This document shows, piece by piece, positions 9,913 through 64,000 of a stretch of 64,000 nt of DNA; positions within the stretch are counted from its first letter, which is position 1; every line of letters begins with the position of its first letter. The stretch lies in IMG/VR virus record IMGVR_UViG_3300045988_151707, positions 46,036 through 110,035 of that record; one strand, 5' to 3'. Position numbers and translations under genes: made by a program. Under the pieces are notes generated by a model. It saw only the letters and a list, made by a program, of their open reading frames with translations. It searched no databases and was not told where the DNA came from. Origin of the DNA: a virus.

Positions 9913-9955
9913 TTTGTCGTCGTTTTTAGTTAAACATTTGGTTTTTGATGCAATA

Positions 9956-9997
9956 CAAAGTTACGAAGAGCACATTGGAGAATGAAGGACAAAAAAA
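9956..9997 (-). promoter_or_regulatory. conserved promoter architecture, copy 2
   Basis: Minus strand reads TTTTTTTGTCCTTC-N20-TAACTTTG, 44 nt upstream of ATG 9912. Confidence 0.6.
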
Positions 9998-10348
9998 CGA
10001 CGGTTTCTCGGAGGACAAAAACAAAAAAGGAGACAATCGCTTGTCTCCTTTCTGTGTGTGTTGATAAAACTCTCATCGAAGAAGGGAATCCCTGTTTTCC
10101 CTATCACGCCGCTAAATTACAAAAAATATTTATATCCGAATAAAACGGATATGTTTTTTTGACAATTGAATGCTTATTTGCACTTTAAAACAATAAAAAG
10201 GGGAATATACCTCTCTTGGAAATATCCCCCTTTATGCATCTAATAATTCATTAAGAATTATAGCTGCAAATATAGCTTTTTATTATGATTGACATCTTGT
10301 TTATGCTTAATTTTTAATATATTTATAGTGTATCTAATAATAATCATT

Positions 10349-29855: not shown

Positions 29856-29967
29856 TGCGTTTGCACATTTGAATATTTACATTTTTGCATAAAAATATTT
29901 CTGTATTTATGGAGGAAATGAAAAAAAACGACTATCTTTGCAGTGTAATAAAACAAAAACATTTGAT

Positions 29968-33081: not shown

Positions 33082-34545
33082 ATGCGACGGAAGAAAAGCA
33101 CCACCGAATCAAGCAACTCACTGATTAAAGAGCTTAGCTCAGTAGAGTTTATTAAACAACCCTATCTGTATGCCATGGTAGGGGCAGATTTTTCACTCTA
33201 CCAGCGAAGTATTATGATAGAAATCATGAAGTCCATGCAAGACCGCTTCAATGAATTTCTGAAAAACAGACGTGCAGACGGACAAATGTCACTTTTCCCT
33301 GATGATCTGGACGACAATCAGATTCTCACATTCCGAATCAGCGCTTCCTCTCTTGGAGTAAGTCCTCGTGACTATATGTATCTTAGTGAGGCATGCGATA
33401 ATCTGATGAAGATGAACTGTTCTTTTTACAGATATGATGAAGTGGGAAGACCTATTCGTACATACGCACATCTGTTTTCTACGATTGAAATGCCGATGAT
33501 TCCGGTTTCAGGCTCGAAAGAAAAAGAAAGGAGGATGAACTACGTGGAAGCGCGTATGGATGCAAAGGTCTTGAAAGAACTGTGCGATTTAGGTAACGGG
33601 AAAGGTTATCTTGACCACATTTACCGAATAGCCCGTATCTGCAAACGCAAACGTACACCAAGCATTTATATTTATCTTTCCAGATGGAAAGACTTCCCAA
33701 AGAAATCGGTGGAATATGTGGAGCTCAAGAAATTCCTGGGAGTGATAACATTGGAAAATGTGGAGGTGAACGGGGTAGTTACTAAGACTTACGAAAAAGA
33801 CCGATACCCGAAATTCAGTAAATTTTGTAAGGAAGTGATGGACCCGATACGTGAAGACCTCGACCGTATGGCCAGCGAAAATCAGGTGGACTTTACTTTT
33901 GATTATGAACCTGTATATAAGGGTTCAACGAAGAGAGGAAACCCTGACGAGATATTATTTAAAATCAAGCTGAGTGAACTTGGGGAGGAAATGTCGCGTA
34001 AACGAAGACAGCAAAAACTTCCCGCAGATATTTGGGACTTGCTTCGCTCTGAATATAAACTGACGGAAACAGATGTGCGTATGCTGACCGATATGCTTCC
34101 TGACGAACTGATGAACGATTTCCGGGCCGAAGTGCTGGCACTTCGTGACCGAATGAACCGGTATAAGGTAAACAATCCGAAAAGTTATGTGGTGACTTCA
34201 CTCAAGAATTTTATTATCCAGCACACTCCGGAGGCAAAAGAAACAAAAGAAGATAATAGGGTAGAGGAGAAGAAAACCGTCAAGCATAAAACAATAAGCG
34301 AAGAAGATAAAAGCCGATGGATGGCATTTATGGAACTTCTTCAAGGTTCTGTAAGTCCGGTTGAATTTAGCACCTGGCTGTCGTCGCTTGAATTTGTTTC
34401 GCTTAATGGTGAGGAAGTGACACTATCTGTACCGGCTGCATACGTAGCGACTTATATTGACGAAAAGCTGAGTGCACCATTTAAACAAGCGCTTAATGCA
34501 GTGTATGGCGAAGATGTAAAACTACTTTATGAAGTAAGAAAATAA
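33082..34545 (+). CDS. plasmid-type replication initiator with DnaA domain-I-like C-terminus
   Basis: The N-terminal region is Rep-initiator-like (..FIKQPYLYAMVGADFSLYQRSIMIEIM..). The C-terminal ..WMAFMELLQGSVSPVEFSTWLSSLEFVSLNGEEVTLSVPAAYVATYIDEKL.. matches the DnaA N-terminal domain pattern. Confidence 0.6.
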   Translation: MRRKKSTTESSNSLIKELSSVEFIKQPYLYAMVGADFSLYQRSIMIEIMKSMQDRFNEFLKNRRADGQMSLFPDDLDDNQILTFRISASSLGVSPRDYMYLSEACDNLMKMNCSFYRYDEVGRPIRTYAHLFSTIEMPMIPVSGSKEKERRMNYVEARMDAKVLKELCDLGNGKGYLDHIYRIARICKRKRTPSIYIYLSRWKDFPKKSVEYVELKKFLGVITLENVEVNGVVTKTYEKDRYPKFSKFCKEVMDPIREDLDRMASENQVDFTFDYEPVYKGSTKRGNPDEILFKIKLSELGEEMSRKRRQQKLPADIWDLLRSEYKLTETDVRMLTDMLPDELMNDFRAEVLALRDRMNRYKVNNPKSYVVTSLKNFIIQHTPEAKETKEDNRVEEKKTVKHKTISEEDKSRWMAFMELLQGSVSPVEFSTWLSSLEFVSLNGEEVTLSVPAAYVATYIDEKLSAPFKQALNAVYGEDVKLLYEVRK

Positions 34546-51110: not shown

Positions 51111-52361
51111 CTACTCACGCCTAAAGGCATGAGCTTCGGAGATACCAATACCTCCTCTCTTTTCCTGCTTCTTCCTATCATTGCTTTTTAGGACACGAGG
51201 TCGGTCATCCACAAGAGGACAGTCCACAGGCTTGACTTTCCCACGCTCCGTGGGTAGGGCTTTCAAGCCAAATTCCTTGATGTTGCAAGCGGCATTGAAG
51301 TCCCGGTCGTGATGTGTACCACATTCCGGGCATGTCCAACTGCGCTCGCTAAGATTCAATTCTTTGTACACATAGCCGCATTTGCCGCAGGTCTTCGAAC
51401 TTGGGGCAAAGCGGTCTATCTTAATGAGGTTCACGCCATACCAACTGCACTTGTATTCAAGCAAAGTTAGGAACATACCGAAAGAAGCATCTCCTACGGC
51501 TTGTGCCAAATGGTGGTTACGCTGCATACCTTTCACGTTCAAATCTTCCATGCAGATAGTGCGCACTTGGCTGTCGTGCGTGAGTGCATGGGTGATTTTG
51601 TGAAGGCTGTCCTTACGGCTGTTAGCTATGTGTTCCTGTAGCCGGGCTACACGGATGCGTGCCTTGTTGCGGTTGGCAGAACCTTTCTGTTTGCGGCTCA
51701 ACCGCTTTTGTAGCAACTTCAAGCGGTCTAAGCTTCTCTGCAAGTTCTTAGGATTGTCAAACGTGCGTCCGTCAGAACATACGGCAAGCGACTTGATACC
51801 TAAATCAATACCTAAAGCCGTATCTCCCTGTATCGCTGAAGCCGGAAGTTCCTGGATGGTCGTATCAACCAACACGGAAGCAAAGTATCTACCCGAAGGT
51901 GTCATGCTGACGGTAACGGTCTTCACGGTACCTTTGAACCTGCGGTGCAGCACGGCAGGAATGTCTTTCGCCTTGGGGATTGTGATTGTTCCTTTCACAA
52001 AGTCCACGTTGCAATGCTGCGGACACTGGAAACTCTGCTTGCTTTTCCGGCTCTTGAATTTCGGAAAACCGACCGCATGAGTGTCACGGAAGAAGTTTTT
52101 GTAGGCGGTATCAAGGTTGCGGATGGAATTCAGGAGGGCTTGTGAATTTACCTCTGTCAGCCATTGGTTTTCCTTCTTCAGTTCGTTCACCATCCGGTCT
52201 TGAACTTCCTTGTAAGCTACAGACTTCTTATCCTGCTTGTAGGCTTCAATCTTCAGGTTGAGTGCCCAGTTATAGACAAAGCGGCAGCAGCCGAAGGTCT
52301 TGGCAAATAAGACCTTCTGTTCTTCTGTCGGATAGATTCTATATTTGTAGGCTCTCAGCAT
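51111..52361 (-). CDS. tnpB: TnpB (OrfB) RuvC-like RNA-guided nuclease family
   Basis: MLRAYKYRIYPTEEQKVLFAKTFGCCRFVYNWAL..GIDLGIK..CGKCG..CPECGTHHDRDFNAACNI. Confidence 0.9.
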   Translation of the reverse strand: MLRAYKYRIYPTEEQKVLFAKTFGCCRFVYNWALNLKIEAYKQDKKSVAYKEVQDRMVNELKKENQWLTEVNSQALLNSIRNLDTAYKNFFRDTHAVGFPKFKSRKSKQSFQCPQHCNVDFVKGTITIPKAKDIPAVLHRRFKGTVKTVTVSMTPSGRYFASVLVDTTIQELPASAIQGDTALGIDLGIKSLAVCSDGRTFDNPKNLQRSLDRLKLLQKRLSRKQKGSANRNKARIRVARLQEHIANSRKDSLHKITHALTHDSQVRTICMEDLNVKGMQRNHHLAQAVGDASFGMFLTLLEYKCSWYGVNLIKIDRFAPSSKTCGKCGYVYKELNLSERSWTCPECGTHHDRDFNAACNIKEFGLKALPTERGKVKPVDCPLVDDRPRVLKSNDRKKQEKRGGIGISEAHAFRRE

Positions 52362-53592: not shown

Positions 53593-53666
53593 GGCCGGCG
53601 GGGTATTACTCTCCGTCGGCCTTTGCTCTAACTTAAAACTTCGCTTCGCAGCGGCAGGAAATTATG
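53593..53666 (+). repeat. intergenic unit I1 (inverted orientation)
   Basis: Stem ggccggcgggg/ctccgtcggcc, box CTCTAAC at 53626-53632, then ggaaattatg. Confidence 0.7.
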
Positions 53667-53673
53667 ATTATTA

Positions 53674-53913
53674 TCATTTCAGAAAACATAATCCGCAACG
53701 GTATTCTTTCTTATCTTCCGGAACTTCATATTCAAGCAGGTATTCCGCAAAGAAATCTTTCGCTTCCTGTTCAGTTCCGTTTACATCTTCACAAGCGCTG
53801 TCGTCAAAAATTATTTTCCCATCACATACAAGACGGTAGTATCCGCTTATGGACTGTTCGCATTCAAAATTCTTTCCTGTTGCTTTTACTACATCCTCAA
53901 AACTAGCTTTCAT
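53674..53913 (-). CDS. hypothetical acidic protein
   Basis: 79 aa. Preferred over the antisense track ORF 53664-53906, which is low-complexity. Confidence 0.5.
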   Translation of the reverse strand: MKASFEDVVKATGKNFECEQSISGYYRLVCDGKIIFDDSACEDVNGTEQEAKDFFAEYLLEYEVPEDKKEYRCGLCFLK

Positions 53914-53964
53914 GACTCTAAACAGTTTTTCCCGTGTGCCTCACGATTTGATTAAACATTTGTA

Positions 53965-54025
53965 GTCCGAAAGAGTATCACCTCCGCCGGACTTGTTCTA
54001 ACTTAAAACTAACTTGTGGAATTAT
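53965..54025 (+). repeat. intergenic unit I2 (inverted, start codon lost: GGAATTATT)
   Basis: Loop gagtatcac, box TTCTAAC at 53996-54002. Confidence 0.65.
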
Positions 54026-54099
54026 TTTGTAAACTGTTTATATGTATTTCCCATAATTCTAAAAGTTTGACGTTGTAAATATAGTTATTTTTCACAAGT

Positions 54100-54179
54100 A
54101 GCCGAAGGAAAATCACTTTTCCTACGGCTGATTTACTAACTTAAAAACTAACGCTTCACAGCGTGACCGATGGAATTAT
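54100..54179 (+). repeat. intergenic unit I3 (inverted, GGAATTATA)
   Basis: Stem agccgaagg/cctacggct, box TACTAAC at 54134-54140. Confidence 0.65.
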
Positions 54180-54388
54180 AGTATCCAATCAATTTTTTCT
54201 AATTCTTCTTTCTCTTTTGGAGTTAATGAACACAGAAAATCACAATTACTATAGTATTCACCATTTTCTTCCGGATCTGAAAATGCACTTTCAGAAGCAC
54301 TAACTATTTTCTGTATGGCATAATATAATTCTAAACTTATACCAGTTATGCTTACCGTCCCGTTCTTATTAAATCTTGTTCTGCTCAT
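54176..54388 (-). CDS. hypothetical protein (cassette gene)
   Basis: Trimmed to MSRTRFNKNG, whose ATG sits in the conserved AGAATTATG context. Confidence 0.5.
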   Translation of the reverse strand: MSRTRFNKNGTVSITGISLELYYAIQKIVSASESAFSDPEENGEYYSNCDFLCSLTPKEKEELEKIDWIL

Positions 54389-54455
54389 AATTCTTTTTAT
54401 TTTATAGTTACACATCTGTTCCGGACCAGGATGCAAACCTGAATCCGGAAGTAGG
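54389..54455 (-). repeat. intergenic unit U3
   Basis: Plus-strand box GTTACAC at 54407-54413. Stem ttccgga/tccggaa. Confidence 0.65.
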
Positions 54456-54917
54456 TTAGATGCGCATCATGTCAAGACATTGTTTTTCGGTGATACGACC
54501 TTTTGCAAAGCAGTAATGAAGTGCTGTATAAGATATTCGATATAGTTTACGATCATGTTTTATGCAAAACTCTTTTCCGTTTAGCATATCAATAAACTGC
54601 ATGTAATCTGTCATTGTATTGAATAGCTTTTTCAGACAATTCTCTATAGTCATGGACTTTACAATAAGTTTACCTGATGGATTTATTCTATCTGGAACTC
54701 CATTTATTACTATTTCTGTCCCATGTGACTTGAAATCCAGCAAGCAGTCTTGAATGTCATATATCTCGTTTCCATTCCCATGATAATAGAAAGCGAACTG
54801 ATTAAATTTGCTTTGCAGACCCTTTTCTATAATATAATTTGCTATTCTTACAGCTTCACCTTTAAGTATTGTTTCACCATTAGCTACTTTCTCGATTAAA
54901 TTCTTTTCTACTTTCAT
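54456..54917 (-). CDS. hypothetical protein (cassette gene)
   Basis: 153-aa ORF. Confidence 0.6.
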   Translation of the reverse strand: MKVEKNLIEKVANGETILKGEAVRIANYIIEKGLQSKFNQFAFYYHGNGNEIYDIQDCLLDFKSHGTEIVINGVPDRINPSGKLIVKSMTIENCLKKLFNTMTDYMQFIDMLNGKEFCIKHDRKLYRISYTALHYCFAKGRITEKQCLDMMRI

Positions 54918-54981
54918 AATTCCAAAATTTTAGTTAGACAATGGTTCCCGTACCAATCTTTTAAATCGGTACGAAATTTAC
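54918..54981 (-). repeat. intergenic unit U4
   Basis: Box GTTAGAC at 54933-54939. Stem cgtacc/ggtacg. Confidence 0.75.
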
Positions 54982-55281
54982 TTAGCGGACTCTTTTTATT
55001 TCTTGATTATATTTGCTCTGTAGAAAATACAAGTCTTCTTTGTAAAGGGTATTCAGATATTCCAGTATTTTACTTTTACTCCTTACTTTTTTTAGCTTTG
55101 AAATACTACCCATTCCGCTACTGTCAGTCCTTACATCGCCATTTTTAAATATTAAAAGAATACATCCTGTATATCCTTCCCAGTCTGTTATGATTTCTCC
55201 TACCTGGAATTTACCATACTCTTTTACTTCACCTTTATTCGCATAATGACGAAAATAGTGATGCTCAATGTTTATTACCAT
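54982..55281 (-). CDS. hypothetical protein (cassette gene)
   Basis: 99-aa ORF. Confidence 0.55.
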   Translation of the reverse strand: MVINIEHHYFRHYANKGEVKEYGKFQVGEIITDWEGYTGCILLIFKNGDVRTDSSGMGSISKLKKVRSKSKILEYLNTLYKEDLYFLQSKYNQEIKRVR

Positions 55282-55346
55282 AATTCAAATGTTTTAAAAG
55301 TTAGACAATTGATCCCGATGTGCCGACAATAGCACACCGGAATTAA
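55282..55346 (-). repeat. intergenic unit U5
   Basis: Box GTTAGAC at 55300-55306, followed by a stem-loop. Confidence 0.75.
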
Positions 55347-55592
55347 TCAGCTTACTCCTGCCATACTGAGAAATTCTTTCTCTGTAAGAATAAACAGATC
55401 CAACTTATAAGCTTTTTCTAATTTACCGGTATCACGAGTGTATGCGTCATCGCCAACAATCACAAAGTTGACTGCGTTTGATACGTTTTTCTTAAACACA
55501 CCACCAAGGCTCTCTATCATTTTGATGTAATATTTACGACCTTTGGACAAAGTTCCTGTAATAGAGAATGATTTTCCTGCTAATGTTTCCAT
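55347..55592 (-). CDS. stand-alone BRCT-domain protein
   Basis: ..LAGKSFSITGTLSKGRKYYIKMIESLGGVFKKNVSNAVNFVIVGDD..KLEKAYKLDLFILTEKEFLSM parallels the NAD-ligase BRCT pattern. Confidence 0.65.
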   Translation of the reverse strand: METLAGKSFSITGTLSKGRKYYIKMIESLGGVFKKNVSNAVNFVIVGDDAYTRDTGKLEKAYKLDLFILTEKEFLSMAGVS

Positions 55593-55664
55593 AATTCATT
55601 TATTTTAAAAGTTAGACATTGCAGCCGGACTAAGTTTACAGACTTAGACCGGTTTCAATTACTT
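55593..55664 (-). repeat. intergenic unit U6
   Basis: Box GTTAGAC at 55611-55617. Stem ccggactaagt/acttagaccgg. Confidence 0.75.
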
Positions 55665-55925
55665 TTATTTGCAAGCTTTCATCTTTCTAAACTTACCTTC
55701 ATAATCAGCATTTACATGTCCTGATTGATAAAGGGTTATATTCCTACTTCTTCGATACATTTTATATTCTCCCCACCAATATGCGTTATATTTCTTACGC
55801 ATATACTTGAGAAGATTTATAACTTCGTCTGGCTTTTCCATTGAATATTCAAACCATTCTGAAATGCCACCTTTCCCATCATTATTAAATACAACTACTA
55901 ATAGACCTGATTTTTGATTTCTCAT
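55665..55925 (-). CDS. hypothetical protein (cassette gene)
   Basis: 86-aa ORF. Confidence 0.55.
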   Translation of the reverse strand: MRNQKSGLLVVVFNNDGKGGISEWFEYSMEKPDEVINLLKYMRKKYNAYWWGEYKMYRRSRNITLYQSGHVNADYEGKFRKMKACK

Positions 55926-55994
55926 AATTCTTTATTTTAAGTTAGGCAATGTAACCGGATGGAGTATCACTTTCCATCCGGATATTCTGTTAAT
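55926..55994 (-). repeat. intergenic unit U7
   Basis: Box GTTAGGC at 55941-55947. Stem ccggatgga/tccatccgg, loop gtatcac. Confidence 0.75.
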
Positions 55995-56312
55995 TTAAGA
56001 AATCTCTTTTTTTGTCTTACTGGTTAATTTACCAATAGGATGACAAAAGTCTGCCGATAATACAGATAAAACTCCCATATATTCTTTTTTTACTTTTTCT
56101 TTTGATAATAACTTACATACTTTTATTCTGTTTCTAATTGTTTCCAGAAAATAATCTGCTTCTGTTAAAGGAATATATATTTTATAATCATGATTACGCA
56201 GCCATTCAAAATACTTATATTCATCCTTGTAATTCCCTGACTTATCACACCATATTCTTTTTTTAGCTATTATTTCTGATATATGAATTTCTTTTAATTG
56301 ATTTTTACCCAT
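55995..56312 (-). CDS. hypothetical protein (cassette gene)
   Basis: 105-aa ORF. Confidence 0.55.
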   Translation of the reverse strand: MGKNQLKEIHISEIIAKKRIWCDKSGNYKDEYKYFEWLRNHDYKIYIPLTEADYFLETIRNRIKVCKLLSKEKVKKEYMGVLSVLSADFCHPIGKLTSKTKKEIS

Positions 56313-56376
56313 AATTCCATTATTTTTAGTTAGACAATGTAGACAGATAGAGTATTAATCTCCATCCGTCTATGAA
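56313..56376 (-). repeat. intergenic unit U8
   Basis: Box GTTAGAC at 56329-56335, followed by a stem-loop. Confidence 0.75.
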
Positions 56377-56562
56377 TCAAAAGTTATCAGAAATTTTCTT
56401 TTCTACTTTTTTCTTGAATTTTTCTATCATTTCTTCAATCTCATACCGTAGCTCTTCATTTTCCAGATAGGAACAATATGTTCTGCTGTTATCAATAGAC
56501 TGTAAAATGTTTGTTACAGCATATTGATTTTTCTCTGATAAACTAAGTTTCTTTATATTCAT
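56377..56562 (-). CDS. hypothetical protein (cassette gene)
   Basis: 61-aa ORF. Confidence 0.5.
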   Translation of the reverse strand: MNIKKLSLSEKNQYAVTNILQSIDNSRTYCSYLENEELRYEIEEMIEKFKKKVEKKISDNF

Positions 56563-56627
56563 AATTCCAATAATTTTAGTTAGACAATAGCACCGGAGGG
56601 AGCCTCACTCTCCCATCCGGCATGTGA
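56563..56627 (-). repeat. intergenic unit U9
   Basis: Box GTTAGAC at 56579-56585. Stem ccggagggag/ctcccatccgg. Confidence 0.75.
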
Positions 56628-57023
56628 TTAGTCTTTGTTTTCCCGAGCAAAATCTTCAATGCGTTTTATCTCTTCAGGAGTAAGTAGGTGCTTATACTCT
56701 TCTTCGTATTTTACTTCATGTCTAAAGATTCGAGCATATTCTCTGTAGTCTCCATGCTCTTCCATTAATGAATCACAGCATATCCAGCAACCTCCCGGGA
56801 ATACAAAGCATAGTTTTTTAGCTTCAGGGTTTTTATTTATGACTACCAGATCATTATACATTGGGCTTTCAATTTCAAAATCCCAATATCCAAGAAAATC
56901 ACCAAACCAATTTACCTTAATGTTTGTAGTGATTAAATTGTCCTTTATTGAAGTAACCATAAATTTTTTGCGGTCTTTTCTGATATAGCTTTCACCTACT
57001 TTAAAGAAGCAATCTTGTGTCAT
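56628..57023 (-). CDS. hypothetical protein (cassette gene)
   Basis: 131-aa ORF. Confidence 0.6.
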   Translation of the reverse strand: MTQDCFFKVGESYIRKDRKKFMVTSIKDNLITTNIKVNWFGDFLGYWDFEIESPMYNDLVVINKNPEAKKLCFVFPGGCWICCDSLMEEHGDYREYARIFRHEVKYEEEYKHLLTPEEIKRIEDFARENKD

Positions 57024-57088
57024 AATTCCAATATTTAAAAGTTAGACAATAGCAGCCGGAGGAGTATCACTCTCCGTCCGGCATTCGG
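57024..57088 (-). repeat. intergenic unit U10
   Basis: Box GTTAGAC at 57041-57047. Stem gccggaggag/ctccgtccggc, loop tatcac. Confidence 0.75.
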
Positions 57089-57901
57089 TTAACTCATGGG
57101 AATGTAAACGTCTTTTGCATTTGGATTCGGGCGATAGATAGTGAGTGTTTCCCCGTCGTTATGAGCGAAACATCTTACCTTGCTGCCGTTGCTCCTGTCT
57201 TCCAACGGCTTGCATCCTTCAGGTAGTTCTTCAAGCTTCCAGAAATATTTGCTCCTCAGAAACTGATTTGTGTAATACTGACCGGAATCGTCTTTCCTGT
57301 AAGTCAGTCCCACATAACCTGCCCATTCTTTAAAGGCCTTGATAGTATAGAACTCTTTAAATATGTACATGAAATCCTGCATGATTACTACCTTTGAACG
57401 TCGTTCTCTCATGTAGTGAGGACTGTTGAAGTATATTTCATGCATAGGTATTATCTTCATGTCTTTTTGGCGGAACTTTTTCACTTTTATAGTGAAGTAA
57501 ATACCTTGTTGGGCTCCTGCTCCATAACAACCCCAGGTCCAGAATACGCGGTCTTCATATCCAACAAACTCAAAGTTTGAAGAATGAATATGAGTAAATG
57601 CGCCACCTGAAGTTGAGAATGATTTACCGTTTGTCCATGAGCTTCCGCTTTCACATACATACATCAATCCGAATTTATCTACACTCTCAACCAGCGCATG
57701 ATTGTAAAAGCTATTGTAATTTACAAACTCTATCATATCTCCTTTCTGCGGCTGCATAAGTGATTTGTCATAGTGGGTAAAAAACTCTTTTTCCACATCA
57801 TTTGCTATCTGATAGTTGCTGTTCCATTCTTTTTCGGTAGTGTAATATCCGTTACCATTCCAACACATGTTTGACTTTTTAAAATCTTCTAATGTCATCA
57901 T
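57089..57901 (-). CDS. hypothetical protein (cassette gene)
   Basis: 270-aa ORF. Confidence 0.65.
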   Translation of the reverse strand: MMTLEDFKKSNMCWNGNGYYTTEKEWNSNYQIANDVEKEFFTHYDKSLMQPQKGDMIEFVNYNSFYNHALVESVDKFGLMYVCESGSSWTNGKSFSTSGGAFTHIHSSNFEFVGYEDRVFWTWGCYGAGAQQGIYFTIKVKKFRQKDMKIIPMHEIYFNSPHYMRERRSKVVIMQDFMYIFKEFYTIKAFKEWAGYVGLTYRKDDSGQYYTNQFLRSKYFWKLEELPEGCKPLEDRSNGSKVRCFAHNDGETLTIYRPNPNAKDVYIPMS

Positions 57902-57966
57902 AATTCCAATAGTTTAAGTTAGACAATAAGTAAGGCAGTCGGAATCACTTCCGGCTGCCCTCTACA
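57902..57966 (-). repeat. intergenic unit U11
   Basis: Box GTTAGAC at 57918-57924. Stem ggcagtcggaa/ttccggctgcc. Confidence 0.75.
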
Positions 57967-59091
57967 TTACAGATAGAAAGCTTCTCTCAGCTCTGGTTCG
58001 CGTTTCTTTGAGAAAACCCAACCGGCACCGCATTTCAGTTTACCGTTGAATCGTCCGCCAAGCTCCTTGAGCTTCGCTACATAGTCGCGGGTGTTACCGA
58101 TGATAGCCACAGCCTTTTCGCTATAATCTACAATCTGCAAATCAGATTTATTTTCTACGGCTTTTGCTGTAGAACTTACAGGTTTTTCCTCCGGTTTCTG
58201 ATAAAGGTCTATATCACTCAGATAACCTCGTAAACAACTTGAAGCAGAAGTGTACTGGTTAGATTCCACAAACTCTGAATAAGACTTTGGGAGAAACTGA
58301 TTTGTTTCAGTTATTCCGATAGCCTCTGGATGTTTCGCATAGAATTTTTCTTTTGTCTCATTCCAGATTTTATCAGAATAGCTGCGTTCCAAATCCGGCA
58401 TATAACCGATTCCACCATATAAGGAAGTAAACTCGCTTTTGATGTGTTCTTCAATGTCTTCGTATCCGTTAAATGTCGTATCTACAAACTTAGAACAGAT
58501 TTTAGCAACCATCTTTTCGGTCGGACCGTCCGTCCATCTTATGTTGTAGCTTTTTGAACCATTCTTTTTGGAATAGAATTTTACACCTGGGAAAGCACGC
58601 TTCAGAAGCACAAGCATGTTTTGTTTGGCCGTCTTGTCGTCATAGCTATTACACTCAGTCAGTATCGAGCCATACTCTTTTCGGAGCTGATCGGTACGAT
58701 TTTGGCTGGCTATACGTTTGTTTTTCTCCAGACGCTCGTTCCATGCCTGCTGTACTTCGCACTGGTGAACCAGTTTGGCTATTTCCTGCTCGGGCATACG
58801 GTAGTCGGGCTCTTTGTCGTCCCAATAGTAACCAATACCGAACTTCTTTGATAACGGCTGGTCGTCCTGCCCTACTCTCCAGTATGCGAAACGGTGCGGT
58901 CTACCGATTTCTGCCATTTTCTGCCGTCCGTGAATGTCTGGTGCAGAAGTCACGATAAACTTACCGCTTTCGCTTCCTCCATAACCTAAGAACCCATAAA
59001 CGCGCTGGCCTACTTCGAGAACCTTTTTACCGATTTCTACCATCTGAAAACCATTTGACCAATCCATTCTGTACATTTTTCCTGATTCCAT
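57967..59091 (-). CDS. hypothetical protein (largest cassette gene)
   Basis: 374-aa ORF. The C-terminal motif ..DYSEKAVAIIGNTRDYVAKLKELGGRFN..GAGWVFSKK.. is seen in other mobile-element proteins, but I cannot name the family. Confidence 0.65.
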   Translation of the reverse strand: MESGKMYRMDWSNGFQMVEIGKKVLEVGQRVYGFLGYGGSESGKFIVTSAPDIHGRQKMAEIGRPHRFAYWRVGQDDQPLSKKFGIGYYWDDKEPDYRMPEQEIAKLVHQCEVQQAWNERLEKNKRIASQNRTDQLRKEYGSILTECNSYDDKTAKQNMLVLLKRAFPGVKFYSKKNGSKSYNIRWTDGPTEKMVAKICSKFVDTTFNGYEDIEEHIKSEFTSLYGGIGYMPDLERSYSDKIWNETKEKFYAKHPEAIGITETNQFLPKSYSEFVESNQYTSASSCLRGYLSDIDLYQKPEEKPVSSTAKAVENKSDLQIVDYSEKAVAIIGNTRDYVAKLKELGGRFNGKLKCGAGWVFSKKREPELREAFYL

Positions 59092-59154
59092 AATTCTATA
59101 AATTTTAAGTTAGACAATAGGCCCCGGCAGATTCTCAAAAACCTGCCGGAATGT
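59092..59154 (-). repeat. intergenic unit U12
   Basis: Box GTTAGAC at 59109-59115. Stem ccggcag/ctgccgg. Confidence 0.75.
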
Positions 59155-59697
59155 TTAAGCTACACAGAAGTAGAAATCACCCTGATGGCGGTATCCGCTG
59201 GTAAGCAATGTCCTGGAGTATGCTTCGTAGTCGAAATACTGACCAAACTCAGTTTGAAGTTCTTCAGGCCATTTCATTTCCGCCATATAGGTGGCAAACG
59301 CTTCTTCAGAATCAAATTGCCCTGCGTATTTATCTCTGAACTTTTCTACGAGCTCTTCACCGTCTTTGATATAGGAATAATCCACAAAGTACATATCAAG
59401 AAACGTAAAGAATGCTTCTGTCTCTGTGTCATCCATATCTTTTGCACACTGAATGATACCAAATATTCGCGGGTCGATATAGCTTTCGTTTATCATACCA
59501 TCCGGTATGTTTGAGTAGTCCTGATACATAAATTCCGGTTCGTCTTCGTCACTGTGTAAATCTTTACAGGAATCCAGAAATTCTTCCTTAGATTGATAGT
59601 CTGCCAGATTCATCCATTGTCCGAACAATGAACCGCTGTTATATTCCTTGTATGTTCCTACATAAACACGTGCTTTCAACAATTTTGATTTTTCCAT
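59155..59697 (-). CDS. ardA: ArdA-family antirestriction protein
   Basis: ..ARVYVGTYKEYNSGSLFGQWMNLADY..EPEFMYQDY.. and C-terminal ..YFDYEAYSRTLLTSGYRHQGDFYF.. parallel Tn916 ArdA (VYIANLGKYNEGELVGAWF..; YIDYQAYGRDLDLSGTF..). Confidence 0.8.
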   Translation of the reverse strand: MEKSKLLKARVYVGTYKEYNSGSLFGQWMNLADYQSKEEFLDSCKDLHSDEDEPEFMYQDYSNIPDGMINESYIDPRIFGIIQCAKDMDDTETEAFFTFLDMYFVDYSYIKDGEELVEKFRDKYAGQFDSEEAFATYMAEMKWPEELQTEFGQYFDYEAYSRTLLTSGYRHQGDFYFCVA

Positions 59698-59759
59698 AAT
59701 TCCTTTGTTTTTAGTTAGACATGGCAGCCGATACAGTTATAACACCGTATCGGCTAATA
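59698..59759 (-). repeat. intergenic unit U13
   Basis: Box GTTAGAC at 59714-59720. Stem agccgatac/gtatcggct. Confidence 0.75.
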
Positions 59760-60128
59760 CTATGCAGCTTTGTAGCCATCCTCTGTCTCAATTATCACAC
59801 CCTGACTGATTGCATAGCTTACAGCCTGCGATGTAACAATGTTGAAAACATCTGATTCTCTTTTGATGTCATCCATGTACATGTCATTCCAATCTACCTG
59901 AACGTCATCATCTTTCACCCATACGTCAATCCATTCGCCCCACCAACCGTCAGGAAGCTGTACATACACCGCGCAACTGCCCGGACCGTCTATCTCAATT
60001 TTTGTGGCTACGGTTTCATGCTTGCATATTCTTCTTACTATTTTCTTATGATCGGGACGATGATTCATTTGTGAATACATAGCTTTTGTAAGTCTTTCCC
60101 AATCCTGAGCTGTCAATGATTTTGTCAT
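59760..60128 (-). CDS. hypothetical protein (cassette gene)
   Basis: 122-aa ORF. Confidence 0.6.
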   Translation of the reverse strand: MTKSLTAQDWERLTKAMYSQMNHRPDHKKIVRRICKHETVATKIEIDGPGSCAVYVQLPDGWWGEWIDVWVKDDDVQVDWNDMYMDDIKRESDVFNIVTSQAVSYAISQGVIIETEDGYKAA

Positions 60129-60200
60129 AATTCCTTGGTTTTAGTTAGACATAAAAGAAGCCGGAAGCAATGATAAATCGCTTTCGGCTTGCATCTGATT
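60129..60200 (-). repeat. intergenic unit U14
   Basis: Box GTTAGAC at 60144-60150. Stem aagccggaagc/gctttcggctt. Confidence 0.75.
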
Positions 60201-60272
60201 TATAGGTCTTTATTCACCTCAATCTCTTCAATAATATAATTGTCATCGGCATTTTCACGACATTGGGTTTGG

Positions 60273-60428
60273 TTATAGTTTTTCTAAACTCCATATATCA
60301 TCATCAGTAAGCTTTGTCTTACCCTTTATTCTTTTCATCGCTTTTTTACGTGTAGAATAAATTCCTAATAAATCACGGCTTGCATGACTTAGCCATGCAT
60401 CAGCCTGAAAAACTGCAAATACTATCAT
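60273..60428 (-). CDS. small hypothetical protein (51 aa, cassette gene)
   Basis: Read manually: MIVFAVFQADAWLSHASRDLLG.. The ATG lies in the TGAATTATG context and is preceded by unit U15. Confidence 0.45.
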   Translation of the reverse strand: MIVFAVFQADAWLSHASRDLLGIYSTRKKAMKRIKGKTKLTDDDIWSLEKL

Positions 60429-60493
60429 AATTCAATCAATTTTAAGTTAGTAATAAGAAAGCCCATGCAGTTACATACCGCACAGGCTTTTTG
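60429..60493 (-). repeat. intergenic unit U15
   Basis: Box GTTAGTA at 60446-60452, followed by a stem-loop. Confidence 0.7.
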
Positions 60494-60859
60494 TTACGAT
60501 GCTATACGCAAAGGATAGATAGTATATACATACCCCTGTCCTCCTCGATAGGCTATGGAATTGTGTGTGTCAAAATATTGCCATGACTGCATATCCTCCC
60601 AATATTCTTTGTTCAGGCGCTTCTCATAGAATGCAATCAGTATTTTATCTATACACTCTTTGTATTCTTCAAACCAATACCAGATAGTATCGTTATAATG
60701 AAAAAAATATCCTGTTTTGCCGTTTACACGTATCATGTCAGGATCTCCTTCAAACATAGCCAACTCATCAAAATCTTCTTCAGATTCATCCGTCCAGCCC
60801 TCTTTTACACATAAATCGTAAAATTCACCAGGGTTTTCAAGAATGTTTATAGCTCTCAT
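60494..60859 (-). CDS. hypothetical protein (cassette gene)
   Basis: 121-aa ORF. Confidence 0.6.
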   Translation of the reverse strand: MRAINILENPGEFYDLCVKEGWTDESEEDFDELAMFEGDPDMIRVNGKTGYFFHYNDTIWYWFEEYKECIDKILIAFYEKRLNKEYWEDMQSWQYFDTHNSIAYRGGQGYVYTIYPLRIAS

Positions 60860-60923
60860 AATTCAAAAGTTTATAGTTAGACAATAGAGGCCGTACCATA
60901 GTCAAATATGGTACAGCCTTACA
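60860..60923 (-). repeat. intergenic unit U16
   Basis: Box GTTAGAC at 60876-60882. Stem aggccgtaccata/tatggtacagcct. Confidence 0.75.
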
Positions 60924-61520
60924 TCATACAGCTATTGAAGATACGCTATGACATACCTTGCCGTCTTCAAAGAATGTGTACTGATTGCAGTCGCATTCGT
61001 CCTGAGCCTGTTCGTCTGTTATCTCATAGAAATAACTGTAGCCCCATTCCTCATACTTTCCGCAAACATCCAGATACCAGGAAGCTATATTTTCCCTTAC
61101 TTTTTCAACTATAGCGTTTTCCTTGTCGGTATAGGCTTCTTCTTCCAACTCTACATCATTACTGCTTGCATAGCAATAGCGGTGTCCACGTGTGAATACC
61201 ACTTTGTTTATAAGTTTTTCGGCTATACCACGTTGGAATCCTCTAAGGCCGTCCATAGCTATCTTTTTAAGCTCATTGTTCTTTATAAAGTCTGAGAAAT
61301 AAACCTCTCCATAAAGAGAGAATCCGTCACCCTGACAATAATTCAGTCTATATTGCGGAGTCAGCTCGAAGCCATACTGACATCTGAAGTCTTCTTTTAC
61401 GCCAGACGAGAATATATACGGCTCACGTCCTTCCAACAGGAAGTTTTTAGCTTCTTCTTTTGCCTGTTCGCTTAATTCGCTATACTCATACACATTTTTC
61501 TCGATAGTAATTGTCTTCAT
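60924..61520 (-). CDS. hypothetical protein (cassette gene)
   Basis: 198-aa ORF. Confidence 0.65.
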   Translation of the reverse strand: MKTITIEKNVYEYSELSEQAKEEAKNFLLEGREPYIFSSGVKEDFRCQYGFELTPQYRLNYCQGDGFSLYGEVYFSDFIKNNELKKIAMDGLRGFQRGIAEKLINKVVFTRGHRYCYASSNDVELEEEAYTDKENAIVEKVRENIASWYLDVCGKYEEWGYSYFYEITDEQAQDECDCNQYTFFEDGKVCHSVSSIAV

Positions 61521-61584
61521 AATTCCTATAGTTTTAAGTTAGTAATCGTGTCTGGAAGTACCGTAAAGCACCTCCAGCATGTAA
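61521..61584 (-). repeat. intergenic unit U17
   Basis: Box GTTAGTA at 61538-61544, followed by a stem-loop. Confidence 0.7.
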
Positions 61585-61788
61585 TTAATACCCCATAGCG
61601 TCGTAGTACGATTTATTTTTTACGTACTCTTTTGCTATTTCGTAGTCACTGCAATCTTCGCCGAGCTTTGCGCTAATACTTTCGTATGCGCTTTTGGGCA
61701 TAACATAGATAACCTGTTCGCTCCAGTCGGAACGACCGGCGAAATACAAAGCCACGAATAAAAACACGCAGCACAGAATGACTTTCAT
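61585..61788 (-). CDS. small secreted/membrane protein
   Basis: MKVILCCVFLFVALYFAG.. is a signal-like N-terminus. Confidence 0.5.
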   Translation of the reverse strand: MKVILCCVFLFVALYFAGRSDWSEQVIYVMPKSAYESISAKLGEDCSDYEIAKEYVKNKSYYDAMGY

Positions 61789-61861
61789 TTTCTTTTTGAT
61801 AACTCAAACTATTTAAGAAGTTTGCAGGCCGTACACCGGTAAAGGTGAACGGCCTGATAGG

Positions 61862-62062
61862 TCATAGTCTGATAGCATTCTGGCAAGCCATATCTGTAGA
61901 TAGAATATGTAAAGCTTCTATATCCGAAATTTGCTTGTATTTTGCTCCCCGGTCTGAATATTCCATACATACCTTTTTTGCATGATTCAGCATGTTTGTT
62001 ACGCATAGATTCCCTATTTTACCTTTGAATGTAGTATAGGTTATCAAATAAAATTTTTCCAT
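61862..62062 (-). CDS. hypothetical protein
   Basis: 66-aa ORF. The upstream sequence is a degenerate copy of the unit box. Confidence 0.45.
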   Translation of the reverse strand: MEKFYLITYTTFKGKIGNLCVTNMLNHAKKVCMEYSDRGAKYKQISDIEALHILSTDMACQNAIRL

Positions 62063-62771
62063 AATCCAAATTTTACATAGTTATACATACAAGAAGTGCC
62101 ATGCACCCAAAGGCGCATAGCACTACATAGGTAGGGGTTTTCCGTACCACCCCCGAAGCTGGTTATCGGTACGTTGACGCATACCAGCCTATATGCACCA
62201 TGATACACTATTTGCATAGGTTCACGGATACACTTTTCGCATAGACTACCTTTGCAGGCGCACCGCCATACAGACACACGTGTCCGCATGGTACGTTGAT
62301 TCCATAGGCCCGGATAACTCCCAGCCCGTTCCATACATACGCTAAAACAGTATGGATCTTTTCCGGTTAACTACTCCGGCATACACCCAAGATTGAACAG
62401 GGCATAGCACACCCGTACATGAATCCATACGGACACGGTGCACCCTGACTGATCGTTCAACACGTTGCAGGACACACCACACCCATACGGGTACAGTTAT
62501 GCCATAGAATTATGAATTATGATTTTCGCGGCCCTGGATACCTTCAGACTCTTGGCCTGGATGACTATAGGCGCATGGACACACCTATCCGCACAACACA
62601 TAGTAAACCCGTGTTGTGTTTCAAGACGGCCCACAGTGCAGCCTTATGCAGCTGGAGTGTATAGTCCCAAATACTACATATAGATACCCTTTTCGCCGGC
62701 CGTATGATATAGAATATATTTTTGTGGGTGTCCGGGAATCGGACCCGGACGAATACCATACACCCTAGAGA
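62063..62771. other. ORF-free ~0.7-kb CA-rich region (candidate structured RNA or cis-acting site)
   Basis: No plausible ORF on either strand. GC content is visibly higher than in the flanking genes. More than 13 CATAG/CATAC/CATGG motifs. Local hairpins at 62592-62618 and 62730-62750. Confidence 0.5.
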
Positions 62772-63311
62772 TTAAGCCGCGTCTACAATACGTTCTGCAA
62801 TTTGTAGCAACATATCTTCAGAAGCGTCTAAAAATTCTACTTTTAAAGCTTGCAATGTAGCGTTTATCTTAGATTCACGTTTTTCTGCTTTTTTAGTTTC
62901 TATCTTTGCTGCTTTCTCCTTTGCTGCTTTTTCCCGTTTTTCCTTTTCCTGATTTATTTGTAGCAAACTTTCTAAGCTTGCAAAAAAATCGTCTTCATCG
63001 AATCTTATTGGAACGTATTCGAAATATTTTTTCCCTATCTGGACTACTTTTAATTCGTTCCCGTCCAATGTTTCAATATCTGATAATCTTTTTAATTTAC
63101 AGAAAACAGGCAAACCGTCTCCAAGCTCGAAGCTCAACAACATAGAAAGATCAACTTTCTTTATACCGTAAAAATCTAAGTATCTTTTGATTTTTTCCTG
63201 ATCACGGTTTTTGTTTATTGTATTCATAACGCCAAACGGTGATCTATTAAGCTTTTTAGTTTCTTTTTTAGCTTCGCGTCTCAATACTGATTTAGATACA
63301 TTTGTTTTCAT
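62772..63311 (-). CDS. Lys/Glu-rich hypothetical protein
   Basis: 179-aa ORF preceded by unit U18. Confidence 0.6.
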   Translation of the reverse strand: MKTNVSKSVLRREAKKETKKLNRSPFGVMNTINKNRDQEKIKRYLDFYGIKKVDLSMLLSFELGDGLPVFCKLKRLSDIETLDGNELKVVQIGKKYFEYVPIRFDEDDFFASLESLLQINQEKEKREKAAKEKAAKIETKKAEKRESKINATLQALKVEFLDASEDMLLQIAERIVDAA

Positions 63312-63345
63312 AAGTCCATAATTTTAAGTTAGTATATAGTAACGG
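63312..63345 (-). repeat. intergenic unit U18
   Basis: cataagtccataattttaaGTTAGTA. Box at 63328-63334. Confidence 0.65.
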
Positions 63346-63641
63346 GTATCGACTATGCACGACCCGGGAGAACATAGTTCACCCGTTAGGCTACCTTTCG
63401 GCTCCTTTCCCGCTATCAATATATTACTATCTCATACGGATTTTTTGTTACAGACTAACCGCGCCGCGTGTACTTTGTTCCGTTTGCTTTCGTGTGTAGC
63501 TGTCAAACTATGACAGCCGGGAAAGTATCAAACTATGATAGTGAACAGGATCACCAGCCGGAACGCAGCTTACGTTTATACGGTTTTTTTTCAAAGAACA
63601 TTTTTTCTTTCTGGATAATTTCAGGAGCGGAAAGAAAAACG

Positions 63642-63722
63642 TATCTTTGTTTTGCAACAAACAGAAGAAAGTTTTATCTTTCTTTTTCCCGGGCGGGTAT
63701 TCCTGTAATACCCGCTTTTTTT
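63642..63722 (+). ncRNA. candidate small RNA (-7 box to intrinsic terminator)
   Basis: TAtcTTTG at 63642-63649. Hairpin agaaag/ctttct, then the terminator gcgggtat-tcctgta-atacccgc plus T7 (63693-63722). There is no credible ORF here. Confidence 0.3.
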
Positions 63723-63915
63723 ATACCTGGAAAGAACGTTGTATCAGTTTTGGCAAGCCTGATTTACTTGTGTAACCTTTTGTTTTTCGATTACACTACG
63801 AAGGTACTCAAATTTCTCTATTGCGCAATAGGTATACACATTTTTCTCTATTATTTTAACCGTTATTTAATATTCAGTCCAAAATGAAAGGTTTATTCAC
63901 ATTTTCGCGCGCTTT

Positions 63916-63951
63916 CTGGTGGCGTTCCTACATGGTGAGGAACGCCACCAG
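63916..63951. repeat. perfect 13-bp inverted repeat (hairpin)
   Basis: ctggtggcgttcc-tacatggtga-ggaacgccaccag. Confidence 0.85.
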
Positions 63952-64000
63952 CGGACACCAGCGGACACCAGCGGACACCAGCGGACACCAGCGGACACCA
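63952..64000. repeat. tandem decamer repeat cggacaccag, at least 4.9 copies, truncated by the window
   Basis: Read directly. It continues to the last base of the window. Confidence 0.9.

What the first reader, a model, noticed from the sequence alone, without database searches (positions are those of the whole stretch)
53593..63345. Array of ~17 small genes, each framed by a conserved unit of stem-loop, ATTGTCTAAC box and GAATTATG start
Sixteen intergenic spacers of 62-72 nt share the same layout. Read on the coding (minus) strand: stop codon; a GC-rich stem-loop of 7-13 bp whose arm sequences differ between units while pairing is kept (loop often GTGATAC); then (A)TTGTCTAAC-T(A/T)AAA; then the start codon 15-18 nt later, in an almost invariant (G/A/T)GAATTATG context (GAATTATG in 15/16 units). 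The genes between units range from 51 to 374 codons and are mostly unrelated. They include ArdA and a BRCT protein. No such unit occurs elsewhere in the window. The pattern resembles terminator-promoter modules that delimit shufflable genes (the promoter-early stem-loops of T4-type phages), or hairpin-dependent promoters for a phage-specific RNA polymerase (N4-like), or RNA-processing sites. I know of no described equivalent in Bacteroidales elements, so I rank this the most promising novel structure in the window.
Basis: partly seen in the sequence, partly recalled or inferred. Interest (0 to 1): 0.85.

Follow-up and report, generated by a model that had tools for sequence, protein, structure and literature searches.

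The report
Shufflable gene cassettes with standard leaders
At one end of a gut Bacteroidales phage genome, about 16 small accessory genes (including anti-restriction ArdA) each carry the same short upstream leader and their own RNA hairpin, and related phages swap, gain and lose genes exactly at these units, much like the promoter-stem-loop cassettes (PeSLs) of T4-type phages.

Summary
The window has 16 minus-strand units of stop, GC hairpin, (A)TTGTCTAAC box, A-run and GGAATTATG. About 350 more occur in roughly 35 related viral contigs.

Shown here:
- The A-run and GGAATT keep a fixed register to the ATG, matching the Bacteroidetes translation-initiation pattern.
- Each hairpin travels with the upstream gene and is more stable on the mRNA strand.
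- Related phages differ cassette by cassette, and homology breakpoints pile up at the units.
- The array lies next to a probable genome end, behind a conserved canonical host-type promoter.

Not shown: that the box is a promoter. It does not match the host sigma-A consensus, no phage polymerase or sigma was found, and the hairpins lack proper U-tracts.

I favour (about 0.5) one long early transcript punctuated by standard intercistronic modules. A PeSL-like terminator-plus-promoter module is the main rival (about 0.3). N4-like hairpin promoters and integron-type sites are disfavoured.

This is a new variant of a known kind, of moderate interest.

The parts
63312..63387 (-). Unit 1: long imperfect hairpin, ACTAACTTAAAA box, GGACTTATG. 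It precedes the 179-codon gene 62772-63311. No gene lies upstream.
   Evidence: 17.9 bits
62063..62125 (-). Degenerate unit: hairpin 62095-62124, TGTATAACTATGTAAAA, GGATTATG. It precedes the 66-codon ORF 61862-62062.
   Evidence: below the matrix threshold
61521..61584 (-). Unit 2, before gene 60924-61520 (198 codons)
60860..60923 (-). Unit 3, before gene 60494-60859 (121 codons)
60429..60493 (-). Unit 4, before gene 60273-60428 (51 codons; a truncated copy of a 75-codon family)
60129..60200 (-). Unit 5, before gene 59760-60128 (122 codons)
59698..59759 (-). Unit 6, before ArdA
59155..59697 (-). ArdA anti-restriction gene (180 codons)
   Evidence: PF07275, E 6e-23
59092..59154 (-). Unit 7, before the LPD29-domain gene
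57967..59091 (-). 374-codon gene with an LPD29 domain (polyvalent-protein-associated)
57902..57966 (-). Unit 8, before the DUF4121 gene
57089..57901 (-). DUF4121 gene (270 codons)
57024..57088 (-). Unit 9, before gene 56628-57023
56563..56627 (-). Unit 10, before gene 56377-56562
56313..56376 (-). Unit 11, before gene 55995-56312
55926..55994 (-). Unit 12, before gene 55665-55925
55593..55664 (-). Unit 13, before the BRCT gene 55347-55592
55282..55346 (-). Unit 14, before gene 54982-55281
54918..54981 (-). Unit 15, before gene 54456-54917
54389..54455 (-). Unit 16 (box ATGTGTAAC), before gene 54176-54388
54100..54179 (+). Inverted unit 1. On the + strand it reads hairpin, ACTAACTTAAAAA, small hairpin ACGCTTCACAGCGT, GGAATTAT. 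It overlaps the stop codon of the minus-strand gene 54176-54388.
53966..54029 (+). Inverted unit 2: hairpin, TTCTAACTTAAAA, GGAATTAT
53593..53666 (+). Inverted unit 3: hairpin, CTCTAACTTAAAA, small hairpin CGCTTCGCAGCG, GGAAATTATG. On the minus strand the hairpin is followed by TTCTTCATTTTT. The same variant is conserved in relatives.
62063..62771 (-). 709-nt conserved non-coding, structure-rich block inside the array
63799..63828 (-). Candidate host sigma-A promoter in the leader: TTG-N19-TACCTTCG here, TACCTTTG in 12 of 15 relatives. It points into the array and is followed by two covarying hairpins.
   Evidence: consensus
63936..64000 (.). 10-bp tandem repeat (TGGTGTCCGC on the minus strand). 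The window and about 8 related contigs stop here, so it is a probable genome terminus or assembly break.

Best explanation
This is the accessory (probably early, anti-defence) gene array at one end of a temperate Bacteroidales phage.

Each small gene is a cassette with three parts:
- a standard leader: TTGTCTAAC core, one to four T, AAAA at -14 to -11, about five free bases, then GGAATT and ATG;
- the ORF;
- a private GC-rich hairpin just after the stop codon.

Shown:
- The hairpin belongs to the gene it follows and is selected on the mRNA strand.
- The A-run and A-3 sit where Bacteroidetes ribosomes need them.
- Related phages differ by whole cassettes, with breakpoints at the units.

Inferred:
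- The shared leader of about 35 nt is the patch of homology on which ordinary recombination inserts, deletes and swaps cassettes, as with T4-type PeSLs.
- The array is most likely read as one long early transcript from the conserved sigma-A-type promoter in the 0.5-kb leader.
- The hairpins then act as leaky attenuators and/or 3'-end protectors. The box plus GGAATT acts as an RNA-level signal: a weak U-rich tail, a processing or standby site, and a translation start region. On this reading there are not 16 separate promoters.
- The three inverted units at the far end would supply RNA complementary to both conserved blocks of the shared leader. That could damp all cassettes at once. This last step is speculative.
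For: - Unit statistics: 329 of 371 boxes have the ATG 15-18 nt after TAAC. Among 189 unique units the modal bases G-5, A-4, A-3, T-2 and T-1 are each present in 180-188 units, A-13 in 189 and A-12 in 186.
- This matches the A(-14..-11) and A-3 determinants measured in Flavobacterium (PMC6847099).
- Hairpins: 96% of units fold at or below -8 kcal/mol, mean -17.4 against -9.3 for shuffles.
- Hairpin identity is 0.78 (median 0.92) when the upstream gene is the same and the downstream gene differs. It is 0.36 in the reverse case, against a background of 0.31.
- The sense strand is the more stable in 98 hairpins against 60 (p = 7e-6). G-U pairs are 10.9% against 6.2%.
- Orthologous hairpins show 8 compensatory and 22 one-sided changes, and 96% of cells are canonical pairs.
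- Shuffling.
- No TAnnTTTG lies in any spacer, whereas canonical boxes sit before other genes.
- A conserved TTG-N19-TACCTTTG promoter lies in the leader.
- Hairpin tails average 3.7 T in 8 nt, while terminators elsewhere in the genome have runs of 5-8 T.
- Distant homologues sit in tightly packed operons with AAC..AAAA leaders and no hairpins.
- The inverted units can pair with both blocks of the leader: -16 to -19 kcal/mol against -7 to -9 for shuffles.
Against: - No transcript ends were mapped.
- The TTGTCTAAC core carries more information than any known Bacteroidetes translation signal, and nothing is known that would read it in RNA.
- Sixteen hairpins of about -18 kcal/mol in one transcript would cost much read-through unless termination is weak.
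- The inverted units are equally well explained as outward-facing promoters.
- The phage is only partly in the window (64 kb of about 100 kb), so a phage sigma or polymerase could lie in the unseen part.
- The strong sequence uniformity could be partly concerted evolution rather than function at every base.
Confidence: 0.5

Rival explanations
1. True PeSL-type modules. Each hairpin terminates the upstream gene and each TTGTCTAAC box is a promoter, so every cassette is its own transcription unit. The box would be read by host polymerase with a phage-supplied or alternative sigma, or by a phage polymerase encoded outside the window. The inverted units would be convergent promoters making antisense RNAs.
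For: - A strong hairpin follows every gene.
- The box has high information content and is strictly oriented.
- The spacers have no other promoter.
- Inverted units without a conserved ORF are conserved in relatives.
- There is a proven precedent in T4-type phages (PMC2839356, PMC4122927).
Against: - The box does not match the -33/-7 consensus found at 70-81% of Bacteroides and Segatella primary start sites.
- There is no conserved upstream element.
- No sigma or polymerase was detected in about 70 ORFs of the window or in 9.4 kb of the other genome end.
- The hairpins lack U-tracts.
- A canonical promoter already stands upstream of the array.
Confidence: 0.3
2. The box is an operator for a phage repressor or other DNA-binding regulator that silences every cassette in the lysogen. 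This would resemble the many asymmetric C1 operators of phage P1, and the sites would overlap whatever promoter is used.
For: - The phage looks temperate or plasmid-like: integrase, ParA, a DnaA_N-domain protein, and a KilA-N/ANT protein in a relative (L032).
- The site is an asymmetric motif of about 17 bp repeated many times.
- From memory only, it resembles the P1 operator consensus ATTGCTCTAATAAATTT.
Against: - A promoter is still needed and none is recognisable.
- The fixed register of the A-run and GGAATT to the ATG is not explained.
- No repressor was identified.
Confidence: 0.07
3. Hairpin-dependent promoters of the N4 virion-polymerase type. The hairpin would be part of the promoter of the downstream gene.
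For: There is a hairpin next to a conserved sequence upstream of each gene.
Against: - Hairpin sequence follows the upstream gene.
- Stems are 7-19 bp with variable loops, whereas N4 promoters (from memory) have 5-7 bp stems with 3-nt loops.
- The hairpins show a sense-RNA stability bias.
- No giant polymerase gene is in the window; the largest ORF is 1019 codons and tail-like.
Confidence: 0.03
4. Site-specific recombination sites of the integron attC type, with cassettes moved by a dedicated recombinase.
For: - GTCTAAC fits the RYYYAAC core.
- The region is an array of unrelated small cassettes.
- A tyrosine recombinase gene is present at 10289-11332.
Against: - There is no partner GTTRRRY on the other side of the hairpin in forward units.
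- The core sits 3' of the hairpin, opposite to attC order.
- The recombinase is 44 kb away and hits only generic phage integrase families; the IntI-specific insert was not examined.
- The box is locked to the start codon.
Confidence: 0.03

Closest known systems
PeSLs (promoter-early stem-loops) of T4-type phages (Arbiol et al. 2010, PMC2839356; Comeau et al. 2014, PMC4122927)
   Same: - Conserved composite intergenic motifs with a stem-loop plus expression signals and a start codon.
- They flank small, mostly orphan genes in hyperplastic regions.
- Close relatives differ by insertion, deletion or replacement of single genes at the motifs.
   Different: - PeSLs contain a consensus host sigma-70 promoter, and both promoter and terminator activity were shown by reporters. 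Here the box matches no known host promoter and nothing is tested.
- Here the stem-loop always sits 5' of the box and belongs to the upstream gene.
- The host phylum lacks Shine-Dalgarno use, so the leader is an A-run/GGAATT type.
- Inverted units lie at the array end.
T7 early operon with intercistronic RNase III sites (established knowledge; includes the anti-restriction gene 0.3)
   Same: - A leading-end early region transcribed from host-type promoters.
- Hairpins lie between cistrons and stay at the 3' end of the upstream message.
- An anti-restriction gene is among the first expressed.
   Different: - T7 sites are long irregular RNase III hairpins of related sequence. Here the stems are short (about 10-14 bp), perfect and unrelated in sequence, followed by a conserved single-stranded box.
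- Cassette shuffling is not a T7 feature.
SPO1 host-takeover module and phage 'morons' (established knowledge)
   Same: Dense runs of small early or accessory genes with their own expression signals near a genome end.
   Different: Those use recognisable host-type promoters and terminators. They have no single repeated unit that serves as a recombination linker.
Bacteroidetes translation initiation region (Baez et al. 2019, PMC6847099)
   Same: Adenines at -14 to -11 and at -3, and no Shine-Dalgarno sequence. The 3' half of the unit fits this exactly.
   Different: The general signal is loose in composition. Here GGAATT and TTGTCTAAC are almost invariant and specific to the array: GAATTATG starts no other gene in the window.
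Halovirus HF2 intergenic repeats that carry promoters (PMC8707807, seen)
   Same: Repeated intergenic sequence classes in a virus genome that serve gene expression.
   Different: Archaeal promoters, no hairpin-plus-leader layout, and no cassette shuffling shown. Only the abstract was read.

Membership tests
PeSL-type mobile regulatory cassette | Repeated composite intergenic motif with a stable stem-loop, next to small variable genes | tested here: met
PeSL-type mobile regulatory cassette | Indels and replacements between close relatives coincide with the motifs | tested here: met
   - 46 gene families and 53 junction types.
- 53% of left and 50% of right homology ends fall in unit-sized windows that make up about 13% of the region.
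PeSL-type mobile regulatory cassette | Motif contains a consensus host early promoter | tested here: not met
   No TTTG/TAnnTTTG in any spacer. Consensus taken.
PeSL-type mobile regulatory cassette | Promoter and terminator activity; mini-circle formation | not testable with these tools
   Needs reporters and inverse PCR.
Bacteroidetes sigma-A promoter | -7 box TAnnTTTG (TAnnTTTCA in Segatella) with -33 TTTG about 19 nt upstream | tested here: not met
   The box has TAACTT(A/T)A at best and no -33 element. By contrast the leader has TTG-N19-TACCTT(T/C)G.
Intrinsic (Rho-independent) terminator | GC-rich RNA hairpin | tested here: met
Intrinsic (Rho-independent) terminator | U-tract directly after the stem | tested here: inconclusive
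   - Mean 3.7 T in 8 nt, and only 19% of units have 5 or more.
- 4 of 16 window units pass the scan.
- Canonical terminators in the same genome have runs of 5-8 T.
N4-type hairpin promoter | Hairpin is part of the downstream gene's promoter, with a small conserved stem and a 3-nt loop | tested here: not met
N4-type hairpin promoter | Virion-packaged giant RNA polymerase | tested here: inconclusive
   None in the 64-kb window or in 9.4 kb of the other end. About 30-40 kb of the genome was not seen.
Integron attC cassette array | Inverted core sites RYYYAAC ... GTTRRRY flanking an imperfect palindrome | tested here: not met
   Only the RYYYAAC-like half is present, and it sits on the 3' side of the hairpin.
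Integron attC cassette array | Adjacent IntI integrase and attI with a common promoter | tested here: not met
   The only tyrosine recombinase is at 10289-11332, 44 kb away.
Bacteroidetes translation initiation region | A-rich at -14 to -11, A at -3, no Shine-Dalgarno sequence | tested here: met
   one search compared
Rfam RNA families | Match to any curated covariance model | tested here: not met
   only two sub-threshold hits, in the leader

The most novel reading that the evidence does not exclude
The phage runs a 'plug-and-play' expression system. Every accessory or anti-defence cassette carries one standard leader, and the array ends with conserved inverted copies that give an RNA complementary to both conserved blocks of that leader, with a small hairpin bridging the variable spacer. 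One antisense element could then switch all cassettes off together, whatever genes have been swapped in. A variant of this reading is that TTGTCTAAC is the promoter for an undescribed phage-directed transcription specificity in Bacteroidales.
Probability: 0.15. Interest if true: 0.8.

Novelty: new variant of a known kind. Interest (0 to 1): 0.55.

Why it matters
- It would extend the PeSL idea from T4-type coliphages to gut Bacteroidales phages. The idea is that short conserved expression modules double as recombination linkers for accessory genes. Bacteroidales promoters and ribosome binding work differently from those of E. coli.
- The units give a simple sequence tag for finding the variable, probably anti-defence, gene pool of this phage lineage in metagenomes. 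Here 46 families were found, most with no known function.
- The standard leader is a candidate strong, portable expression signal for Bacteroides or Prevotella engineering.
- If the inverted units prove to be a common antisense switch, that would be a new way of regulating a shuffling gene set.

Tried and rejected
- Megablast of the array and of 1-25 kb against GenBank phages found nothing.
- A literal search of papers for the box gave only noise.
- The crAss-like early-promoter idea fails. Phage phi14:2 early transcripts share no motif, and the window has no giant polymerase.
- The sequence of Bacteroides 'promoter motif 2' is not given in any text I could read, so it was not compared.
- The scan of bacterial genomes for the unit gave 21 single hits, about 13 before real Bacteroidota genes. 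My estimate of chance matches is of the same order, so I draw nothing from them. In two of them a canonical -7 box lies upstream, which puts the motif in the 5' UTR.
- A single perfect unit sits in a tail operon of an unrelated phage group (L002 type). It may also be chance, as about 5 chance hits are expected in the viral collection.
- The ArdA-based search of genomes found only two Chryseobacterium loci. Their ArdA has a hairpin and TTCTAAC..TTAAAA upstream, but that is one event.
- I could not settle by substitution pattern which of the two fully overlapping ORFs at 53664-53913 is real. The minus ORF stays intact in all relatives while the plus ORF is cut in one.
- E. coli-type -35/-10 readings of TTGTCT..AATTAT were rejected because they would start RNA inside the ORFs.
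- No Rfam family matches and there are no tRNAs.

Full report

Yes. Read on the minus strand, 16 genes between 54176 and 63311 are each preceded by three elements: a GC-rich hairpin, the box (A)TTGTCTAAC-T(1-4)-AAA(A), and 15-18 nt after TAAC the start codon. The start codon sits in GAATTATG in 15 of 16 units.

Fourteen spacers are 62-72 nt. One is 144 nt because the 51-codon gene is a truncated copy of a 75-codon family. A strict pattern occurs 5 times against 0 in 100 shuffles. A 17-nt weight matrix scores the 16 units at 16-26 bits. Outside the forward units it finds four weaker copies:
- one at 9940(-);
- three inverted copies on the + strand, at the distal end of the array.

**2. It is a family feature.**

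The pattern TGTCTAACTNAAA-N6-14-GAATTATG pulled 58 stretches from about 35 IMG/VR contigs of 50-122 kb. With the matrix these hold about 350 further boxes, strongly strand-biased per locus. Of all 371 boxes, 329 have an ATG 15-18 nt after TAAC.

**3. Anatomy of the unit.**

Anchored on the ATG, 189 unique units show the following:
- the modal bases G-5, A-4, A-3, T-2 and T-1 are each present in 180-188 units;
- A-13 is present in 189 and A-12 in 186;
- positions -11 to -7 vary freely.

The length variation lies between TAAC and the A-run, as one to four T. So the A-run and GGAATT are tied to the start codon. [quoted passage not shown] GAATTATG starts no other gene in the window. Upstream of the box nothing is conserved except the CCGG end of many stems.

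**4. The hairpins.**

- 96% of units fold at or below -8 kcal/mol, with a mean of -17.4 against -9.3 for shuffles.
- Arms differ completely between cassettes. Within orthologous sets there are 8 compensatory and 22 one-sided changes, and 96% of cells are canonical pairs.
- When two units share the upstream gene but not the downstream one, hairpin identity is 0.78 (median 0.92). In the opposite case it is 0.36, against a background of 0.31. The hairpin is therefore the 3' element of the preceding gene.
- Hairpins are more stable on the mRNA strand than on its complement (98 against 60; p = 7e-6). They also have more G-U pairs (10.9% against 6.2%). This points to function in RNA.
- Their tails are only weakly U-rich: mean 3.7 T in 8, and 19% have 5 or more. 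Terminator-like hairpins elsewhere in this genome carry runs of 5-8 T.

**5. Cassette-wise variation.**

The 320 ORFs that follow units fall into 46 families. Relatives keep a backbone order: first gene, then ArdA, LPD29 and DUF4121, then two terminal genes. They differ by presence, absence or replacement of single genes, giving 53 junction types.

In blastn of the window array against all loci:
- 164 of 311 left homology ends lie within 60 nt upstream of TAAC;
- 155 of 310 right ends lie 20-40 nt downstream of it.

The units make up only about 13% of the sequence.

**6. Context.**

- The window is an uncultured phage. It has an endolysin, a tail-like 1019-codon gene, an integrase, ParA, a DnaA_N-domain protein, SSB, two DNA methylases and TnpB.
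- The TnpB element is 84-87% identical in DNA to copies on Bacteroides plasmids (77% on an Alistipes plasmid). Several domains are Bacteroidetes-specific. The host is therefore Bacteroidales.
- Array proteins include ArdA, LPD29, DUF4121 and BRCT. Distant DUF4121 homologues lie in similar runs of small genes with RadC, PcfJ/K and ArdC. This fits an anti-defence or host-takeover role.
- The window and about 8 related contigs stop 650-890 nt upstream of the first unit, in a variable 10-bp tandem repeat. This is a probable genome end or assembly break.
- The 0.5-kb leader holds a conserved TTG-N19-TACCTT(T/C)G. This is the canonical Bacteroidetes -33/-7 promoter, and it points into the array. Two hairpins that covary between relatives follow it.

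**7. What reads the box?**

- It is not the sigma-A consensus. No TAnnTTTG lies in any spacer, while such boxes precede other genes of the window.
- No sigma or RNA polymerase was found in about 70 ORFs or in 9.4 kb of the other genome end. Part of the genome is unseen.
- crAss-like early promoters have no common motif.
- Single matches in bacterial genomes and in an unrelated phage are at about the number expected by chance.
- In distant arrays (L082, L084) genes are packed 10-15 nt apart with AAC(C/T)..AAAA leaders and no hairpins.
- A second lineage (L083) has hairpin, ATTAACC, TTAAAA and ACAATTATG units. That is the same layout with a variant box.

**8. The inverted units.**

On the + strand each reads hairpin, box, then GGAATTAT (two of the three also carry a small hairpin between box and GGAATTAT), and each abuts the stop codon of a minus-strand ORF. 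The variant with the small hairpin CCGCTTCRCAGCGG is conserved in relatives. No + strand ORF is convincingly conserved.

There are two readings:
- outward-facing promoters that make antisense RNA;
- on the array's own RNA, an element complementary to both conserved blocks of the shared leader. The calculated bipartite duplexes are -16 to -19 kcal/mol against -7 to -9 for shuffles. That complementarity follows by construction from their being inverted copies.

This point remains unexplained.

**9. Mechanism.**

I commit, at about 0.5, to a long early transcript from the leader promoter, punctuated by standard intercistronic modules. In this model the private hairpin is an attenuator or 3' protector, and the shared leader is an RNA-level and translation signal. 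The shared leader also serves as the homology for recombinational shuffling.

The terminator-plus-promoter reading (true PeSL) stands at about 0.3. The remaining alternatives stand at about 0.07 (repressor operator), 0.03 (N4-type hairpin promoters) and 0.03 (integron-type sites).

**10. Novelty.**

The closest known system is the PeSL of T4-type phages. Two of its defining features are met: the repeated stem-loop motif, and indels at the motifs. One is tested and not met: the host consensus promoter. I therefore call this a new variant of a known kind, not a member. I found no description of it in the searchable literature.

**11. In passing.**

A 709-nt conserved, non-coding, structure-rich block with 18-19 (C/G)TATG motifs lies inside the array.

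Noticed in passing
window 62063-62771 (minus strand): A conserved non-coding block of about 709 nt between the first array gene and the next cassette.
- It is present in about 30 related loci at 79-98% identity.
- Substitutions show no 3-nt periodicity, and no ORF is conserved.
- GC is 48%.
- The consensus fold is -223 kcal/mol with 196 pairs, 8 of them compensatory. Long helices are rich in G-U pairs, which work only on the minus-strand RNA.
- The motif (C/G)TATG occurs 18-19 times against about 4 expected.
- Whole hairpin modules are inserted or deleted between relatives.
- There is no Rfam match.
It is a candidate early structured RNA or a protein-binding array.
   Followed up: partly
window 63388-64000 (minus strand): A conserved leader of about 0.6 kb upstream of the array. 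It contains:
- a variable 10-bp tandem repeat at the contig end;
- a hairpin GGCGTTCCT..AGGAACGCC whose loop is inverted in some relatives;
- a canonical -33/-7 promoter followed by two hairpins with clear compensatory changes;
- a repeated CATAGTTTGA(T/C)A element;
- a + strand terminator-like hairpin with a T-run (63691-63725).
   Followed up: partly
window 53664-53913: Two ORFs overlap almost completely on opposite strands: + 80 codons, starting at the GGAAATTATG of inverted unit 3, and - 79 codons, acidic and Cys-rich. The minus ORF is intact in all relatives and the plus ORF is cut in one. Substitution phases only weakly favour the minus ORF.
   Followed up: partly
window 60129-60428: The 51-codon gene is a truncated copy of a 75-codon family found in relatives. 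This explains the odd 144-nt spacer.
   Followed up: yes
window 51111-52361: A TnpB (IS605 OrfB) gene with its own full TTTG-N-TAnnTTTG promoter. It is 84-87% identical in DNA to copies on Bacteroides plasmids (77% on an Alistipes plasmid). A relative (L032) carries a different TnpB with a serine-resolvase partner at the other genome end.
   Followed up: partly
window 29938-30750, 33082-34545, 10289-11332: ParA, a protein with a DnaA N-terminal domain, and a tyrosine integrase sit in one phage genome. This suggests a temperate phage that may also persist as a plasmid.
   Followed up: no
L083 230-1000: In a second phage lineage the spacers hold GGTTAAGTCA 5' of the hairpin and ATTAACC 3' of it. 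The two can pair, so there the box could be sequestered in an extended stem. This feature is not seen in the window's forward units.
   Followed up: no
L080 5900-5970 and L081 2560-2625 (Chryseobacterium): The only ArdA relatives found in reference genomes also have a hairpin followed by TTCTAAC..TTAAAA upstream of the start codon. The two loci are orthologous, so this is a single observation.
   Followed up: no
window 9913-10288: A divergent intergenic region with two canonical terminators (hairpin plus T5-6), a TAACTTTG -7 box, and a weak copy of the array box (AATGTTTAACTAAAAA) in the predicted 5' UTR of gene 9514-9912.
   Followed up: partly
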